From Moraxella sp. TY6 (GTDB lineage Bacteria > Pseudomonadota > Gammaproteobacteria > Pseudomonadales > Moraxellaceae), in NCBI RefSeq assembly GCF_048551375.1, contig NZ_JBLYZJ010000006.1, positions 80,051 through 144,050 on the forward strand: DNA of 64,000 nt, read 5' to 3'. The notes below the pieces were generated by a model, which ran no database searches, had not been told where the DNA came from, and saw only the letters and a program-made list of their open reading frames with translations. Position 1 is the first letter of the stretch. The number at the start of each line of letters is the position of its first letter. Both the position numbers and the translations under genes were made by a program. Positions 22,119 through 29,390 of the stretch are shown piece by piece.

Positions 22119-25100
22119 TTAATCACTAAAAATCTGATTGAGTTTTTGCAAGTTATTGACTATCAGCTTACCTGTTTGGTCGGTGCTGATGTCGATTTGC
22201 AGTTTCTCATCCAACCGCATGACGATGGGTTCTAACGCTTGTTTTAACCCCTCAATCAGTTGGCTGTTCGCTTGGCTATTAGTTTGACTGTTACTTTGAG
22301 CTTGCTTGTCGCTAGTTTCACCATTTGCCAATACCGATTCATCCGTTGGATTTACCACTTTTAACGCATTGATGGCGGTGACGAGGGTCAGTGCCAGTTC
22401 TTTGAGCAATGCCTGTTGCTGTTGTTGTTGCTGGAGTTCGACTTTGCGTTGGTGTTGGTAGAGTTGTCCAATTTTGGCAAAACTTTTTTCCACAAATACA
22501 TTCAGGCTGTTTTCAAGGTGTTGGCTGTTTTGGCTGACCCATTGCTGTTGTTGGGCTTGTTGTAGCATTTGTTGCTCAAGCTGTTGTTTGGCATACACTT
22601 CATTGATTTTTAACAATAATTCATGTTCGGCTTGTTGGGTTTCGTCAAGATTTGGGGCAGTTTGTTGCTGTTGTACCCATTGCCCGACTTGCTGATTCAT
22701 GCCTTGCACGCCTGCCACCAAGTCCACCAGTTGAGCCACCATGCGGTTGCCTGTGTCGCTACTGTCACCGCCCATCGCTTTGTTGCGTAAAAAGTCCGCC
22801 ACGATTTGCGACCAACGAGCCTGTTCTGCCTCGGTCATCACGCCTCGGATTTGGGCAAGTTTTAGCAAGTTGCTTTCCGCCCCTGTGGTGAGCAGTTGTG
22901 CCTCGCCTTGATAGTGGTCGCCAATCAGTTGTTGCAGTTCGCTGTCGTTCATCACGGCAGAGAGTTTTTCGGTCATTTTGTTCATGTTGCGATAACTGCC
23001 CTGTAGCTTAAAGGCAGGCTCGGTGCGGTATTTGTCATCTTGCGAGGCAGAGGCGATATACTGCTGATTGACTTGTAAAATGACCTGTTGCACCGCAAGC
23101 ATTTTTTGCAAAATCGCCACGATTTCTTGGATTTCGCTGTTGGCGTAGGGGTGGGTAAGTTCGCCCAATGCGGTGATTTTGCCTTGTGCCAAGTCGATAA
23201 ATTGATACACATCCGCCATGTCACGGTTGGCAAGTGGGGCGAGAATGGCGTTACTGGTGAGGGCGTTTTCGAGGTAGCTTAACGCAAACACCTGTTCCAT
23301 ACCGTTCATCATGTCGCCGAGGTTGTAGATATCGGCACGGTTGGCAAGCATATCTGGGACTTTGAACACCTCGCCTGTTTCGGTGTAGGGGTTGCCCGCC
23401 ATCACCACGCAGAATTTTTTGCCTCGCATATCGTAGGTTTTGCTTTCGCCTTGCCATACGCCGTCAATGCGTCTTGTGCCGTCTGTTAATGAGATAAATT
23501 TTTGTAAAAATTCGGCATGAGTATGCTGAATATCGTCCAAATACAACATGACATTGTTGCCCATTTCGAGGGCTAAATTCAGCTTTTCTAGCTCTCGACT
23601 GGCGGTGGCATTGGGGGCTTTGGCAGGGTCAAGCGAAGTCACCTCATGCCCCAGCGAAGGGCAGTTGATTTTCATAAAAATCAAGCCCAAACGGTTTGCC
23701 ACATATTCCATCAAGGTAGTTTTGCCATATCCAGGGGGCGAAATCAGCATTAACAACCCCATCAAATCGGTGCGTTTGCTGTCGCCCAATGTGCCGATTT
23801 GTTTGGCAAGATTATCACCGATAATCGGCAAATAACTGTCATTAATCAAACGGTTACGCACAAAGGATGATAGCGGACGAGCGACAAATTCATCAAGGCG
23901 TAAATCCAACCGTGCTTGGGTCAGTAGGTCATGGCGTAGGCGTTGGTACTGGCGAAACTTCGGAATGGCGGTATGTTCATGCTGATAAAGTTGGCTTAAA
24001 AAACTGTCTAAGCTAAAGGTAAGCGTCTGATTCGGCAATTTGGGATGTTCGCCCAATAAGCGACTGACACTGACTTCAAGCGAAATCGGACTGATGTCAC
24101 GCTGAAAGTTGGGCGTTTGTTTATCACTGCGAATCATCAACATAGCCACCGTTTCGGCAACATAATGCGATAGATTATCCATTGACAACTTGTCGGCTGA
24201 TACGCCATCGGCTAATTGGCTGTCACTTTGGCGAAGTAAATCTAGCAAAGCGTTAAGCCATGTGGTCGCCAGTTCATAGGCTGATTTTGGCTCATGGCTC
24301 AGTTTCGACAACACCGATTGTAAATAGTTAAAACGCTCTAGCCCAACGGTGGTTTCAAGTTTTTGATAAAGTGTGTTCGCTTGTTGGGTGGTTTGCCAAA
24401 AAATACCATTCCCAAAAAGTCCACTATCTTTGTCAAACTCGCTTGATGTACTACTTGTACTATCTTCGCTCGTTTGCCTCGATATTGAACTTTTTGCTTT
24501 TGGTATTTGATTGAGGGTGTGATTTGCTGTTAAATCTATTTTTGCTAACCCCAAAACTTGAGCGAGATAGTCACTGGCTAAGTCAATCTGTGATTGGCTA
24601 AATAAATTTGGCATTTTGGCTTGGACAAATTCGCCCAAAACCGCACGAATATCCGCCACCAATAGATTTTTGGCGGTGTCACTGTGTAGGGCTTGTTGTA
24701 ATTGATAAGCAGTAATCGCTCGGTCTTGCCAATGGCGAATTTCGGCTTGATGGGGGGTGAACCATGCTGTTTCCGCTTGCACTAAACTTGGTGAAGGGCT
24801 TGTCGAAGGGTTGGTAGTGGGATTTGAAACGTTATGGTTCGACAGGCTCACCACGAACGTTTTATTTTGCTGATGTAAAGTAATCTGCTCAAAGAAAATC
24901 TGTGCCAACGCTCGCACAGTCGGCTCAAAGGTGAGTAAATTGGCAGTCTGTAGCAACGGCAAAATCTGCAACAATATCAACACCGCATCATGGTCATGAA
25001 TGCCTTTTTCGTAGCCAAATTGATAACTTGGCGTGATATAAGTTTTGACCAAATCCAGTAGCGGACTGTCATTTTCGGGGTTTGCAAGGTTGTGGCTCAT

Positions 25101-28142: not shown

Positions 28143-29390
28143 TTATTCATTTATACTTTTAATTTCATCTTTATCAAGCTCTTTACAATTTTTCATTAAA
28201 TCCGAATGGTCAAATAGTACAGGTGCTTTGTATTCATTCCCTTGTAATGCTTCGATAATAGCATTAGAGATGAGGTTTATATTTGAAAAAGAACCGCCAA
28301 TAAAGAATAGGTTTAACAAATCAGAAGTTAATATTTCATATCTCCCAATACGCTTTCCTCTATTATTTATCTCTTTTATTTTCATCATCCAACCACTTAC
28401 ATCCCTATTATTCGCTTCAAATAGTAATATACATTTCTTAAGCTTGGATAATGCTAAATATATCGGTGTCTTTGAATATGATTTCTTTTTTAAATCGTAT
28501 TTAAAAAAAGCTTTTGAAGTCAAAACTTCATTTATAACATTCACATCAATCGAAATCTTTGATGTCATACAATTCATCAAGCATGATAATGAAAAAAATT
28601 GCCACTCAGAACTAGGCAAAGTAATAGTTTCATCAATTGAGCAGGGCAAACGAATTTTTTCTAATAAGTTTTCCGCAGATGTATGGATAAGAAATCTATT
28701 ATTTTTTAAATCTTTTCTTAAACTATCTTGAAAGATTTTCAATTCATTTAATAAAATCTCAATATAAAGTTTTGCTTCTAAATCTCCTAAATAAATTAAT
28801 GAATATAATGAGTCCACAATTTCTCTAAAACTCTCAAACTGCCTAATCCAGTTTCCAGAAGGTAACTCTCCTTTACCCGATAGAGCATTCTTTGTATCGG
28901 TATTTCTTCCGATCTCCTCAACAAAATCTGAGATATATACTGCATCGTTGGAAAACTTTGTAGGTGCATTTATTACATTTTCTATTAAATCCTTATCAAA
29001 TAACTCAAGTTTATTTAAATATTTAGCCAATTCATTCCTAGTTTCTTTTAATTGCCAAACATCACGTCTTACAAATGATATAATTTCAAGCTTCCCTTGT
29101 TGGTGTAGTTTGTAAGCGTGTCTGTATTCCTGTCTAGTAATACTTATTTTGTTTGTCTTATCGAACCAACCGCCAACTCTAGTGCCAACGAGCAAAATAA
29201 AATAATCACATTCATCTATAAGATTTAAACAAGCATGGTAACTATGAACATTTCCATCAACTTTAAAGTCACTACTTTCTGAAGTAAAAACAATATATCC
29301 ATGTTGCTCCAAATAAAATTTTAAAGCAGACCGTAAATCTTTAAAGTCATAAATTGTTGATGAAATAAAAACTTTAGGTGTATTATTCAT
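28143..29390 (-). CDS. DUF4062-like (TIR/SLOG-like Rossmann) N-terminal domain protein with unknown C-terminal domain
   Basis: 415 aa; N-terminal KVFISSTIYDFKDLRSALKFYLEQHGYIVF..CLNLIDECDYFILLVGTRVGGWFD fits the DUF4062 consensus; RBS AAGGG; about 30% GC against about 46% in flanking genes. Confidence 0.65.
   Translation of the reverse strand: MNNTPKVFISSTIYDFKDLRSALKFYLEQHGYIVFTSESSDFKVDGNVHSYHACLNLIDECDYFILLVGTRVGGWFDKTNKISITRQEYRHAYKLHQQGKLEIISFVRRDVWQLKETRNELAKYLNKLELFDKDLIENVINAPTKFSNDAVYISDFVEEIGRNTDTKNALSGKGELPSGNWIRQFESFREIVDSLYSLIYLGDLEAKLYIEILLNELKIFQDSLRKDLKNNRFLIHTSAENLLEKIRLPCSIDETITLPSSEWQFFSLSCLMNCMTSKISIDVNVINEVLTSKAFFKYDLKKKSYSKTPIYLALSKLKKCILLFEANNRDVSGWMMKIKEINNRGKRIGRYEILTSDLLNLFFIGGSFSNINLISNAIIEALQGNEYKAPVLFDHSDLMKNCKELDKDEIKSINE

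What the first reader, a model, noticed from the sequence alone, without database searches (positions are those of the whole stretch)
22119..29390. Giant AAA_5/MoxR-like ATPase (2001 aa) with a low-GC DUF4062-like gene 18 bp upstream: candidate undescribed two-component NTPase system
The 2001-aa ORF has one MoxR/AAA_5-type P-loop module (PPGYGKTT; hhhhDD; VVMAGNP..ANRADI) about 1,500 aa from its N-terminus. A large N-terminal domain of unknown fold and a long coiled-coil region precede it, and Gln-rich tracts follow it. Its stop codon is 18 bp from the start of a 415-aa gene on the same strand (same transcriptional direction). That gene has a DUF4062-type N-terminal Rossmann/TIR-like domain (VFISSTIYDFKDL..DECDYFILLVGTRVGGWFD) and a 250-aa C-terminal region with no recognisable motif. 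The 415-aa gene is about 30% GC, whereas both neighbours are about 46% GC. This pattern suggests a swappable sensor or effector cassette placed in front of a resident giant ATPase. I do not recognise this pairing as any named defence system. In established knowledge, DUF4062 appears as an N-terminal module of NTPase-centred conflict systems such as STAND/Avs, which fits a defence or signalling role. The size and coiled-coil of the ATPase would also fit a structural or motor role.
Basis: partly seen in the sequence, partly recalled or inferred. Interest (0 to 1): 0.85.

Follow-up and report, generated by a model that had tools for sequence, protein, structure and literature searches.

The report
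Phage-defence gene inserted beside conserved ATPase
The two neighbouring genes are not a new two-part system: a foreign stand-alone NAD-destroying anti-phage gene of a class first described in 2026 has landed inside a widely conserved membrane-stress operon that ends in a giant, already catalogued ATPase.

Summary
The sequence features are real. Both genes are on the minus strand. A 415-aa DUF4062 gene (28143-29390, GC 0.289) ends 18 bp before a 2001-aa gene (22119-28124, GC 0.474) with one AAA+ module.

The pairing is accidental. In 77 of 80 related genomes a flotillin-like gene lies directly upstream of the giant ATPase (median gap 167 bp; 2,873 bp here). None of the 80 has a DUF4062 gene nearby. 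Full-length relatives of the 415-aa protein sit alone in eight unrelated sites, including a prophage, an ICE, integrase/Abi and Gabija-like islands, and spots between housekeeping genes. None is beside such an ATPase.

[quoted passage not shown] By synteny it corresponds to bacE of P. aeruginosa.

The 415-aa protein has the DUF4062 (TIR-like NADase) plus variable C-terminal domain architecture. Three 2026 preprints show this architecture gives single-gene abortive-infection defence (Swarozyc, Evangelion, Vulcan). Its catalytic E88-Y89, F8 and W181 are conserved. I could not resolve which named lineage it belongs to.

Verdict: a new member of a known kind. The two-component reading is not supported.

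The parts
28143..29390 (-). Stand-alone DUF4062/NIR-AUX gene (415 aa), a putative NAD+-depleting abortive-infection protein. It is a horizontally acquired low-GC insert.
   Evidence: PF13271 E=1.8e-19. GC 0.289. 429 homologues, most of those listed full-length at about 400-450 aa. Absent from 80 related loci. Found alone in 8 other contexts.
28836..29390 (-). N-terminal TIR-like DUF4062 effector domain (residues 1-185). The putative catalytic E88 codon is at 29127-29129.
   Evidence: Modelled as an alpha/beta domain; the whole model has mean pLDDT 83.8. Foldseek hits are dominated by TIR domains and nucleoside 2-deoxyribosyltransferases. F8, E88-Y89 and W181 are invariant in 33 homologues. Identity to homologues is 51-75%.
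28146..28835 (-). C-terminal auxiliary (AUX) domain, residues 186-415. It is the presumed phage-sensing and oligomerisation module.
   Evidence: Mostly helical with small beta-hairpins. Only 19-37% identical to homologues. An AUX-only search of 1.84 billion representatives gave 10 hits; those of about 385-420 aa match at the corresponding C-terminal position, the rest are shorter proteins or fragments. No PDB match.
22119..28124 (-). Resident giant AAA+ ATPase (2001 aa). It is a DUF3686/DUF7902 'DNA repair ATPase' family member and corresponds by synteny to P. aeruginosa BacE.
   Evidence: PF12458 E=5e-174, PF25472 E=1e-24, AAA E=3.5e-7. 283 relatives in GTDB genomes. Flotillin-like gene directly upstream in 77/80. 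Literature: PMC11237479 and PMC10948618.
26760..27965 (-). Beta-propeller-like domain of the giant ATPase (residues 54-455). It is preceded by a long N-terminal helix and followed by a helical arm (479-727).
   Evidence: AlphaFold model pLDDT 85. Foldseek hits to Elp1, clathrin terminal domain plus linker, Ski8, WDR91 and LRRK2 WD40, E 1e-5 to 1e-3.
23205..23807 (-). AAA+ module (residues about 1440-1640). Walker A PGYGKT is at 23718-23735 (K1468). Walker B is D1530/D1531.
   Evidence: the block 1401-1600 is 81-86% identical across 80 orthologues and the motifs are invariant.
29428..29967 (-). Zn-ribbon protein (179 aa). It is probably a native accessory gene of the ATPase operon, not part of the insert.
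   Evidence: PF13453. GC 0.435. Homologues lie on the giant's strand downstream of it in 10 loci, and on the opposite strand in an eleventh (L071). One DUF3686 protein carries a fused PF13453 (P0193).
29996..30969 (-). Frameshifted RhuM-Fic/DOC gene (194-aa and 133-aa ORFs). It is a disrupted copy of the PADLOC candidate defence gene PDC-S23.
   Evidence: Profile positions 2-191/327, E=6e-64, and 206-324/327, E=9e-42. The frame change is visible at about 30400. Absent from 80 related loci.
30998..33004 (-). Flotillin-like (BacD/PaFlo3-type) membrane protein, 668 aa. It is the conserved upstream partner of the ATPase.
   Evidence: 49-80% identical homologues directly upstream of the giant in 77/80 loci. 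No Pfam hit on the window protein itself.
33111..33572 (-). Second low-GC insert in the same operon: a 153-aa ORF of unknown function.
   Evidence: GC 0.301, GC3 0.221. No family hit. No tblastn match (E<=1e-5) in any of the 80 related loci, and the tblastn hit ends in Psychrobacter leave only a few hundred bp between the NfeD-like and flotillin-like genes.
33623..34432 (-). YqiJ/short-NfeD-like membrane protein (269 aa), the first gene of the abbreviated operon.
   Evidence: Homologues upstream of the flotillin-like gene in 71/80 loci. The next gene upstream is a divergent thioesterase.

Best explanation
The interval holds two functionally independent units brought together by insertion.

Unit 1 (28143-29390) is a horizontally acquired single-gene anti-phage protein. 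It belongs to the DUF4062/NIR-plus-AUX class that includes Swarozyc, Evangelion and Vulcan. Inferred mechanism, by analogy with tested relatives:
1. The fast-evolving C-terminal AUX domain recognises a phage-derived cue.
2. The resulting oligomeric rearrangement releases the autoinhibited TIR-like domain.
3. [quoted passage not shown]
4. NAD+ depletion aborts the infection.

Unit 2 (22119-28124) is the terminal gene of a resident, widely conserved operon: YqiJ/NfeD-like, flotillin-like, Zn-ribbon, giant AAA+ ATPase. This is the abbreviated form of the PspA-linked operon, bacABCDEF in P. aeruginosa. The ATPase probably works at the inner face of the membrane with the flotillin scaffold. It has a beta-propeller and a helical arm for binding partners and an AAA+ motor for remodelling them.

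The DUF4062 gene landed in the last intergenic spacer of this operon, and a disrupted RhuM-Fic defence candidate landed one spacer further upstream. The DUF4062 gene is probably transcribed by read-through.

Shown: domains, conserved residues, predicted folds, synteny statistics, composition. Inferred: NADase activity, defence phenotype, trigger, the ATPase's membrane role and co-transcription.
For: Synteny of the ATPase:
- 283 relatives were found and the best 80 loci fetched.
- tblastn with the window's proteins finds a flotillin-like gene directly upstream in 77/80 and a YqiJ/NfeD-like gene in 71/80. DUF4062, RhuM and Fic homologues appear in 0/80.
- The flotillin-to-ATPase gap has a median of 167 bp (range 3-983). 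It is 2,873 bp in the window.
- Pseudomonas locus L044 reads DUF2170, PspA, YqiJ-like, flotillin-like, giant, rhomboid, PLD. This matches bacABCDEF, shown to be co-transcribed in PMC10948618.
[quoted passage not shown] My model shows that architecture.

DUF4062 gene:
- Pfam E=1.8e-19.
- Invariant F8, E88-Y89 and W181. These match the functionally required F11, E87 and W162 of Eva01 and the catalytic Glu of KpSwz, Vulcan and PsAvs2.
- TIR and NDT fold hits.
- A conserved effector domain and a divergent AUX domain: 51-75% against 19-37% identity.
- Homologues lie alone between housekeeping genes, in a lambdoid prophage, in an ICE, beside Gabija-like genes, and in an integrase/Abi island.
- The gene's GC is below that of its flanks in 8 of 9 hosts.
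- Single-gene defence with NAD+ depletion was demonstrated for class members.

The window carries other low-GC defence-like islets, so such inserts are typical of this genome.
Against: - The 18-bp spacing, the shared strand and the absence of a terminator-like site between the genes mean the two are probably co-transcribed here. A locally evolved functional coupling cannot be excluded by sequence alone.
- No close relative of this Moraxella species was available; the best ATPase identity was 60-61%. The insertion could therefore not be dated or shown to be polymorphic.
- I could not obtain the sequences of the tested proteins (KpSwz, Vulcan, Eva01-04). Homology of this AUX domain to a tested one is unproven, and no Klebsiella, E. 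coli, Salmonella, Yersinia or A. baumannii protein appeared among the named hits.
- Fold matches for the effector domain are weak in E-value, the best TIR hit being 5e-3.
- Correspondence to P. aeruginosa BacE rests on synteny in other Pseudomonas genomes, not on direct alignment to PA3728.
Confidence: 0.85

Rival explanations
1. This is the first reader's model: a genuine two-gene system. The giant AAA+ ATPase acts as sensor, scaffold or motor, and the DUF4062 protein is its swappable NADase effector. This would be analogous to DUF4062-STAND fusions split into two genes.
For: The genes share a strand, are 18 bp apart, and have no terminator-like site between them. DUF4062 does occur as the effector of NTPase-centred Avs/NLR-like proteins. 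The flotillin operon here has accumulated defence-type inserts.
Against: - 0 of 80 ATPase loci carry a DUF4062 gene.
- None of the 8 other contexts of full-length homologues carries a DUF3686 ATPase.
- The 415-aa protein keeps its own full AUX domain, as stand-alone relatives do.
- The ATPase is AAA+, not STAND, and is under strong purifying selection in genomes that lack any DUF4062 partner.
- The 18-point GC difference shows different histories.
Confidence: 0.04
2. The DUF4062 gene is an inert or decaying passenger. It would be unexpressed or non-functional in this host, like the neighbouring frameshifted RhuM-Fic gene.
For: The adjacent PDC-S23-like gene is disrupted. No convincing own promoter was found; promoter-like sites number 35 against 24.9 +/- 4.9 expected, and none is outstanding upstream of the gene.
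Against: The ORF is intact at 415 aa, against roughly 400-450 aa in most listed homologues. Every column that is invariant across 33 homologues is retained, including E88-Y89. The identical protein is found on two contigs from two assemblies, and the one place shown has the same gene arrangement. Read-through from the operon would express it.
Confidence: 0.07
3. The 415-aa protein is a DUF4062 enzyme with a non-defence role, for example nucleotide or NAD metabolism or signalling tied to membrane stress. It would have been recruited to the flotillin operon for that purpose.
For: Only about 20% of DUF4062 genes lie in recognised defence islands. Several close homologues sit between housekeeping genes. 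The fold is shared with nucleoside 2-deoxyribosyltransferases.
Against: Distribution is patchy and the gene is low in GC relative to its host. An identical protein occurs in both a chromosome and a prophage. Other family members lie in integrase/Abi and Gabija-like neighbourhoods. No tested DUF4062-AUX protein in these reports was assigned a non-defence role, and most conferred defence.
Confidence: 0.04

Closest known systems
Swarozyc (KpSwz), a single-gene DUF4062+AUX NADase defence system (Osinski et al., bioRxiv 10.64898/2026.05.01.722283)
   Same: An N-terminal DUF4062 TIR-like domain with a catalytic Glu, followed by a helical stalk and a C-terminal AUX domain in one polypeptide of about 420 aa. 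The gene is stand-alone, horizontally spread and found in islands and prophages. The predicted AUX has a helical core with small beta-hairpins.
   Different: Homology of this AUX domain to KpSwz AUX (HTH/winged fold, W238/Y239 hairpin, portal sensing) could not be tested because the sequence was not obtainable. The spacing from the catalytic Glu to the conserved Trp differs: 93 residues here, 79 in KpSwz. No Klebsiella, E. coli, Salmonella, Yersinia or A. baumannii proteins were among the named family hits. The trigger is unknown.
Evangelion (Eva01-04) DUF4062 family (Ibarra-Chavez et al., bioRxiv 10.64898/2026.06.25.731849)
   Same: A conserved DUF4062 core carrying the aromatic F, E-Y and W motifs (F8, E88-Y89 and W181 here; F11, E87-Y88 and W162 in Eva01). 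It is coupled to a rapidly diversifying AUX region needed for defence, and it spreads on mobile elements.
   Different: Eva01 has a short AUX and comes from a staphylococcal plasmid. Enterococcus plasmid DUF4062 proteins match only residues 5-113 of this protein, so the AUX domains are unrelated at the sequence level.
Vulcan, NIR (DUF4062) + HEAT-repeat single protein (Le Mouellic et al., bioRxiv 10.64898/2026.09.04.749371)
   Same: A single protein with an N-terminal NIR domain, a catalytic Glu and an alpha-helical C-terminal region. The tested Vulcan protein is from Enterobacter, a genus that also carries members of this protein's family.
   Different: No HEAT repeat was detected by Pfam. 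The model's AUX contains beta-hairpins. No link to WP_050009967.1 was found in cluster look-ups.
PSP-associated YqiJ/YuaF + band-7/flotillin + AAA+ ATPase operon (Ravi et al. 2024, PMC11237479); bacABCDEF of P. aeruginosa (PMC10948618, PMC2587700)
   Same: The giant protein has the described architecture: an N-terminal coiled coil, a beta-propeller and a C-terminal AAA+ module. It sits after YqiJ-like and flotillin-like genes, which is the 'abbreviated operon' form. In Pseudomonas relatives the same genes follow DUF2170 and PspA and precede rhomboid and PLD genes.
   Different: This locus has no PspA or CesT/Tir dyad. It carries three extra inserts: a 153-aa low-GC ORF, a RhuM-Fic pseudogene and the DUF4062 gene. 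Its Zn-ribbon gene lies upstream rather than downstream of the ATPase. Biochemical function is unknown in every organism.
Avs/NLR-like STAND proteins with an N-terminal DUF4062/NIR effector (e.g. PsAvs2)
   Same: The same effector domain and the same inferred output, NAD+ depletion.
   Different: In those proteins effector, STAND NTPase and sensor repeats are fused in one polypeptide. Here the DUF4062 protein has no NTPase domain, and the neighbouring ATPase is a classical-type AAA+, not STAND.

Membership tests
DUF4062/NIR + AUX single-protein defence class (Swarozyc / Evangelion / Vulcan) | N-terminal DUF4062 (PF13271) domain | tested here: met
   E=1.8e-19, 70.1 bits against a cut-off of 24.7, residues 6-92.
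DUF4062/NIR + AUX single-protein defence class (Swarozyc / Evangelion / Vulcan) | Catalytic Glu (E-Y motif), plus the conserved N-terminal aromatic residue and conserved Trp | tested here: met
   F8, E88-Y89 and W181 are invariant in a 33-sequence alignment. Compare F11/E87/W162 in Eva01, E97 in KpSwz and E98 in Vulcan.
DUF4062/NIR + AUX single-protein defence class (Swarozyc / Evangelion / Vulcan) | TIR-like / nucleoside-deoxyribosyltransferase-like alpha/beta fold of the effector domain | tested here: met
   Model pLDDT 83.8. Foldseek PDB hits are RPS4, L6 and RUN1 TIR domains, SARM1, SPARTA TIR-APAZ, TIR-STING and NDTs, with probability about 1.0 but weak E-values from 5e-3.
DUF4062/NIR + AUX single-protein defence class (Swarozyc / Evangelion / Vulcan) | Fused, fast-diverging C-terminal auxiliary domain; stand-alone gene with patchy, mobile distribution | tested here: met
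   AUX is 19-37% identical against 51-75% for the effector. AUX-only hits of about 385-420 aa match at the corresponding C-terminal position. Contexts include a prophage, an ICE, an integrase/Abi island, a Gabija-like neighbourhood and housekeeping gaps.
DUF4062/NIR + AUX single-protein defence class (Swarozyc / Evangelion / Vulcan) | NAD+ hydrolysis and phage-triggered abortive infection | not testable with these tools
   This needs plaque assays, NAD+ measurement and an E88 mutant.
Swarozyc sensu stricto | AUX homologous to KpSwz AUX (HTH/winged core, W238/Y239 hairpin anchor; WP_202404386) | tested here: inconclusive
   The sequence was not retrievable. There were no PDB entries, no E. coli DNA match with the Enterobacter homologue, and none of the cited UniParc or WP identifiers in cluster look-ups. 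The model has a helical AUX with hairpins.
Vulcan | C-terminal HEAT repeats | tested here: inconclusive
   No HEAT family in Pfam at E<=0.1. AUX is mostly paired helices interrupted by beta elements.
YqiJ/flotillin-linked AAA+ ATPase operon (PSP-associated; bacCDE core) | [quoted passage not shown] | tested here: met
   DUF3686 E=5e-174. The model shows helix 2-48, a beta-rich domain 54-455 and helices 479-727. Propeller hits in Foldseek. Invariant AAA+ motifs.
YqiJ/flotillin-linked AAA+ ATPase operon (PSP-associated; bacCDE core) | Band-7/flotillin gene and YqiJ/YuaF-like membrane gene immediately upstream | tested here: met
   By homology and synteny: 77/80 and 71/80 loci. Caveat: Pfam itself gives no Band_7 or NfeD hit on the window proteins.
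YqiJ/flotillin-linked AAA+ ATPase operon (PSP-associated; bacCDE core) | CesT/Tir (DUF2170)-PspA dyad at the head of the operon (full bacABCDEF form) | tested here: not met
   Upstream of the YqiJ-like gene is a divergent thioesterase, so this is the abbreviated form. The dyad is present in Pseudomonas locus L044.
MoxR / AAA_5 ATPases | Specific MoxR-clade AAA+ signature, usually with a vWA partner | tested here: inconclusive
   AAA_5 scores 29.0 bits, no better than AAA at 31.2 or AAA_22 at 29.0. There is no bpMoxR hit. The nearest solved sequences are p97/Cdc48/NVL/Rix7. No vWA domain was detected in the operon neighbours scanned.
STAND/Avs with DUF4062 effector | STAND NTPase and sensor repeats fused to the effector in one protein | tested here: not met
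   The 415-aa protein has only DUF4062 plus AUX. The neighbouring ATPase is AAA+, a separate gene and of different ancestry.
Systems in PADLOC-DB v2 (2023) | HMM match to a catalogued defence protein | tested here: not met
   No hit for either protein. The library predates the DUF4062 reports. The neighbouring RhuM and Fic ORFs do match PDC-S23.

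The most novel reading that the evidence does not exclude
The YqiJ/flotillin/Zn-ribbon/giant AAA+ operon may not be a passive landing site. It could be an envelope-stress or infection-responsive module whose transcription is exploited by defence genes. Three separate foreign inserts occupy its intergenic spacers: a 153-aa low-GC ORF, a RhuM-Fic defence candidate and the DUF4062 NADase. On this reading the NADase is expressed under membrane-stress control, or the flotillin-ATPase machine itself contributes to anti-phage or membrane-repair immunity.
Probability: 0.1. Interest if true: 0.6.

Novelty: new member of a known kind. Interest (0 to 1): 0.25.

Why it matters
This removes a false lead. 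The proposed 'giant ATPase + DUF4062' defence system does not exist as a conserved pairing.

What remains has modest value:
- An untested, well-populated lineage of DUF4062-AUX proteins: 429 hits with this protein as query and 732 with an Enterobacter relative. Members occur in Moraxellaceae, Enterobacterales, Xanthomonadales, Rhizobiales and others, and their phage trigger is unknown.
- A clean example of a defence gene inserted inside a housekeeping operon rather than in a classical island.
- A reminder that the widespread flotillin-linked giant AAA+ ATPase, annotated 'DNA repair ATPase' without any evidence that I found, still has no known biochemical function. It is conserved across several bacterial phyla and is co-regulated with a biofilm and virulence cluster in P. 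aeruginosa.

Tried and rejected
- PADLOC 2023 models gave no hit for either protein. This is uninformative because the library predates the DUF4062 papers.
- NCBIfam gave only noise.
- PDB sequence searches with both full proteins found nothing.
- A literature search for 'DUF3686' returned zero papers. The operon was found only through PA3728/PA3729 and PspA/CesT/band-7 searches.
- Attempts to tie the 415-aa protein to a tested protein all failed:
  - The Swarozyc supplement lists only UniParc and WP identifiers, not sequences.
  - The NIR paper has no held supplement.
  - Cluster look-ups showed none of those identifiers.
  - A blastn search of the Enterobacter homologue against 5,426 E. coli genomes found nothing.
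  - A second homologue search seeded with the Enterobacter protein listed no Klebsiella, E. coli, Salmonella, Yersinia or A. baumannii names.
- The plasmid tblastn search found only 3 full-length matches.
- The search for target-site duplications or terminal repeats around the insert gave only AT-rich matches of the kind expected by chance.
- The promoter and terminator scans were not clearly above shuffled expectation.
- Rejected idea: that the Zn-ribbon gene is part of the foreign cassette. Its GC is native, and its homologues accompany or are fused to the ATPase elsewhere.

Full report
**Observation.** The window carries two adjacent minus-strand ORFs. A 415-aa gene spans 29390 to 28143. 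A giant gene spans 28124 to 22119 (ATG, 2001 aa); an alternative TTG at 28136 would give 2005 aa. Eighteen bases separate the stop of the first from the ATG of the second.
- Pfam assigns DUF4062 to residues 6-92 of the small protein (E=1.8e-19).
- In the giant it assigns DUF3686 'ATPase involved in DNA repair' (33-521, E=5e-174) and DUF7902 (642-725). One AAA-type module lies at 1456-1584: AAA E=3.5e-7, AAA_5 E=1.2e-6, AAA_22 E=1.5e-6.
- The small gene has GC 0.289 (GC3 0.226). The giant has 0.474 and the whole window 0.429. Only 1.1% of equal-sized windows are as low.

The strand and gene order need restating. The N-terminal region is a known Pfam family, not an unknown one. The 'MoxR' label is not specific, because the nearest solved sequences to the AAA block are p97/Cdc48/NVL/Rix7 at E about 4e-4.

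**Is the pairing conserved? The ATPase side.** A scan of one genome per species found 283 relatives of the giant protein, and the best 80 loci were fetched with 10-kb flanks. They come from Psychrobacter, Moraxella boevrei, Cellvibrio, Pseudomonas, Xenorhabdus, Glaciecola and others, at 44-60% identity.
- tblastn with every protein of the window's neighbourhood shows a homologue of the 668-aa flotillin-like protein directly upstream of the giant in 77 of 80 loci. Two of the three exceptions (L052, L065) start at or within about 550 bp of the ATPase match. The third, M. boevrei, has ClpB upstream.
- A homologue of the 269-aa membrane protein lies upstream of the flotillin-like gene in 71 of 80.
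- Homologues of the DUF4062 protein, the RhuM ORF and the Fic ORF are found in none.
- The flotillin-to-ATPase gap has a median of 167 bp (range 3-983). In the window it is 2,873 bp.

**Is the pairing conserved? The DUF4062 side.** The protein has 429 detectable homologues. Most of those listed are about 400-450 aa and cover 93-100% of the query. I examined their gene contexts.

| Homologue | Context |
|---|---|
| 53% identical | Lone gene between TauE and BirA/pantothenate kinase |
| Psychrobacter okhotskensis | Between an aminotransferase and DJ-1 |
| Enterobacter (identical protein in two sites) | After an efflux operon in the chromosome, and inside a lambdoid prophage |
| Sphingopyxis | Beside a transposase in a conjugative element |
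| Kosakonia | Beside a Gabija-like ATPase/UvrD pair and a CbtA/CbeA module |
| Rhodospirillales | Among IS66, a recombinase and a mer operon |
| Morganella | Directly after an integrase next to smpB, followed by Abi_alpha and Abi_C genes |

None of these eight contexts contains a DUF3686 ATPase. The gene is lower in GC than its flanks in 8 of 9 hosts. The only other place with the window's arrangement is the window's own genome, GCA_048551455.1. The adjacency is therefore an insertion, not a system.

**What the giant protein is.** In Pseudomonas locus L044 the gene order is DUF2170, PspA, YqiJ-like, flotillin-like, giant ATPase, rhomboid, PLD-like.
- This matches the bacABCDEF operon of P. aeruginosa. 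There BacA is a DUF2170 protein and BacB is PspA. bacE (PA14_16190) and bacF were shown by RT-PCR to be co-transcribed with bacA-D, and their products rose together in a bacA mutant (PMC10948618).
- PA3728 is listed simply as 'ATPase'.
- Ravi et al. [quoted passage not shown] They note that abbreviated operons lacking PspA are more widely distributed.
- The window has this abbreviated form. The gene upstream of the YqiJ-like gene is a divergent thioesterase.

Across 80 orthologues the AAA block (1401-1600) is 81-86% identical, with invariant Walker A, Walker B, GNPYTE and RADIYNLGD motifs. Residues 1101-1400 and the Gln-rich tail are poorly conserved. NCBI names the family 'DNA repair ATPase'. 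I found no experimental basis for that name, and 'DUF3686' occurs in no searchable paper.

The 179-aa Zn-ribbon gene between the inserts is probably native. Its GC is 0.435. Homologues lie on the giant's strand downstream of it in ten loci, and on the opposite strand in an eleventh (L071). One DUF3686 protein carries a fused Zn-ribbon domain (P0193).

**What the 415-aa protein is.** Three 2026 preprints establish DUF4062 as a TIR-like NADase used in bacterial immunity.
- *Swarozyc* is a single protein with DUF4062 plus an auxiliary domain. [quoted passage not shown]
- *Evangelion* has a conserved core with F11, E87-Y88 and W162, and a diversified AUX that is required for defence.
- *NIR* is the same domain as the effector of Avs2, of the single-protein Vulcan (NIR + HEAT repeats, E98) and of the two-gene Vesta.

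The window protein fits this class.
- F8, E88-Y89 and W181 are invariant in 33 family members.
- The model (pLDDT 83.8) has an alpha/beta domain up to about residue 185, then a mostly helical domain with small hairpins.
- Foldseek hits, although weak in E-value, are dominated by TIR domains and nucleoside 2-deoxyribosyltransferases, as published for DUF4062.
- The effector half is 51-75% identical to homologues and the AUX half only 19-37%.
- An AUX-only search of 1.84 billion representatives found 10 proteins. The hits of about 385-420 aa carry the match at the corresponding C-terminal position; the rest are shorter proteins or fragments.

I could not decide which named lineage it belongs to. 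The tested sequences were not obtainable. None of their identifiers appeared in cluster look-ups. An E. coli genome search was negative. Named family members are from Enterobacter, Kosakonia, Leclercia, Morganella, Rahnella, Stenotrophomonas, Psychrobacter, Sphingopyxis and similar genera, not from the species used in the Swarozyc study.

**The locus as a whole.** Reading the minus strand, the operon runs as follows, with inserts in brackets:
- YqiJ-like gene
- [153-aa ORF, GC 0.301, no family]
- flotillin-like gene
- [RhuM 194 aa + Fic/DOC 133 aa]
- Zn-ribbon gene
- [DUF4062-AUX]
- giant ATPase
- then cytochrome c and an ABC transporter

The RhuM and Fic ORFs are the two halves of one PADLOC candidate defence gene, PDC-S23. 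They match profile positions 2-191 and 206-324 of 327, with E=6e-64 and 9e-42, and are split by one frameshift near 30400. No terminator-like site separates the DUF4062 gene from the ATPase, so read-through transcription is likely. No flanking repeats mark the insert.

Elsewhere in the window, other low-GC stretches also encode defence-like proteins:
- an HD-CE + HATPase protein at 42407-45535;
- a PsyrT/ShosT-like phosphoribosyltransferase at 48405-48974;
- a PtuA-like ATPase with a PIN protein at 49785-51364, just after carA.

Single defence genes wedged between resident genes are therefore typical of this genome.

**Mechanism and confidence.** Best explanation (0.85): there are two independent units. 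Unit 1 is a phage-triggered NAD+-depleting abortive-infection protein. AUX senses, the TIR-like domain executes through E88, and the trigger is unknown. Domains, residues, fold and contexts are shown here; the activity is inferred from tested relatives. Unit 2 is the motor subunit of a flotillin-associated envelope module. Its synteny and architecture are shown; its role is inferred.

Rivals:
- a true two-gene system (0.04);
- an inert passenger (0.07);
- a non-defence enzyme (0.04).

**Novelty and score.** Both components belong to kinds already described, so this is a new member of a known kind. The proposed new system is not supported. Interest is 0.25. The residual value lies in an untested AUX lineage, in the insertion of defence genes into an operon, and in the still-unknown function of a very widespread giant ATPase.

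Noticed in passing
window 33111-33572 (-): A 153-aa ORF with GC 0.301 (GC3 0.221) lies between the YqiJ/NfeD-like and flotillin-like genes. It has no Pfam, NCBIfam or PADLOC family and has no tblastn match in any of the 80 related loci. It is a second foreign insert in the same operon.
   Followed up: partly
window 29996-30969 (-): The RhuM (194 aa) and Fic/DOC (133 aa) overlapping ORFs are the two halves of one PADLOC candidate defence gene, PDC-S23. They are split by a frameshift near 30400, giving a pseudogenised defence candidate next to the DUF4062 gene.
   Followed up: yes
window 29428-29967 (-); L015, L021, L031, L032 and others: The 179-aa double Zn-ribbon protein has homologues downstream of the giant ATPase in Cellvibrio-type genomes. 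One DUF3686 protein (P0193) carries a fused PF13453 domain. This suggests an unreported functional link between this Zn-ribbon protein and the ATPase.
   Followed up: partly
window 42407-45535 (+): A 1042-aa protein with an HD-CE domain (E=4e-54) and a weak HATPase_c_3 match. It overlaps the lowest-GC stretch of the window (GC 0.26-0.34 at about 43400-44800). It has no PADLOC hit and may be another conflict-system gene.
   Followed up: partly
window 48405-51364 (+): Directly after carA (47152-48402) lie four genes: a PsyrT/ShosT-like phosphoribosyltransferase (189 aa), a 187-aa ORF with no family, a PtuA-like AAA_15/AAA_21 ATPase (371 aa) and a PIN-domain protein (150 aa). GC is about 0.32-0.34. 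These are further defence-like islets among housekeeping genes.
   Followed up: partly
L036, L038, L040, L041, L043, L044, L050, L051, L056, L058, L062 (flotillin-to-ATPase gap): Pseudomonas relatives carry a conserved 79-81-aa ORF between the flotillin-like and ATPase genes. It has a weak TerB-like match (E=6e-5) and may be an additional small component of the bac-type operon. It is absent from the window.
   Followed up: partly
L088-L091 (Enterobacter), about 11540-12200: The Enterobacter DUF4062-AUX gene is followed about 300 bp downstream by the same 208-aa gene of unknown family. This holds in both its chromosomal and its prophage location, so the 208-aa gene may be a co-travelling partner in that sub-lineage. 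No equivalent exists in the window.
   Followed up: no
L003 (Moraxella boevrei): The closest named relative of the giant ATPase (60% identity) has no flotillin-like or YqiJ-like homologue detected within the 10-kb flanks. Instead it is preceded by ClpB. It is the only locus with ample upstream sequence that breaks the synteny.
   Followed up: no
window 30998-33004 and 33623-34432 (-): Neither the flotillin-like nor the YqiJ/NfeD-like protein is recognised by any Pfam model (Band_7, Flot, NfeD) even at E<=1. Both are nevertheless clearly homologous to the proteins at the BacD and BacC positions in other genomes. Current profiles appear to miss this clade.
   Followed up: partly
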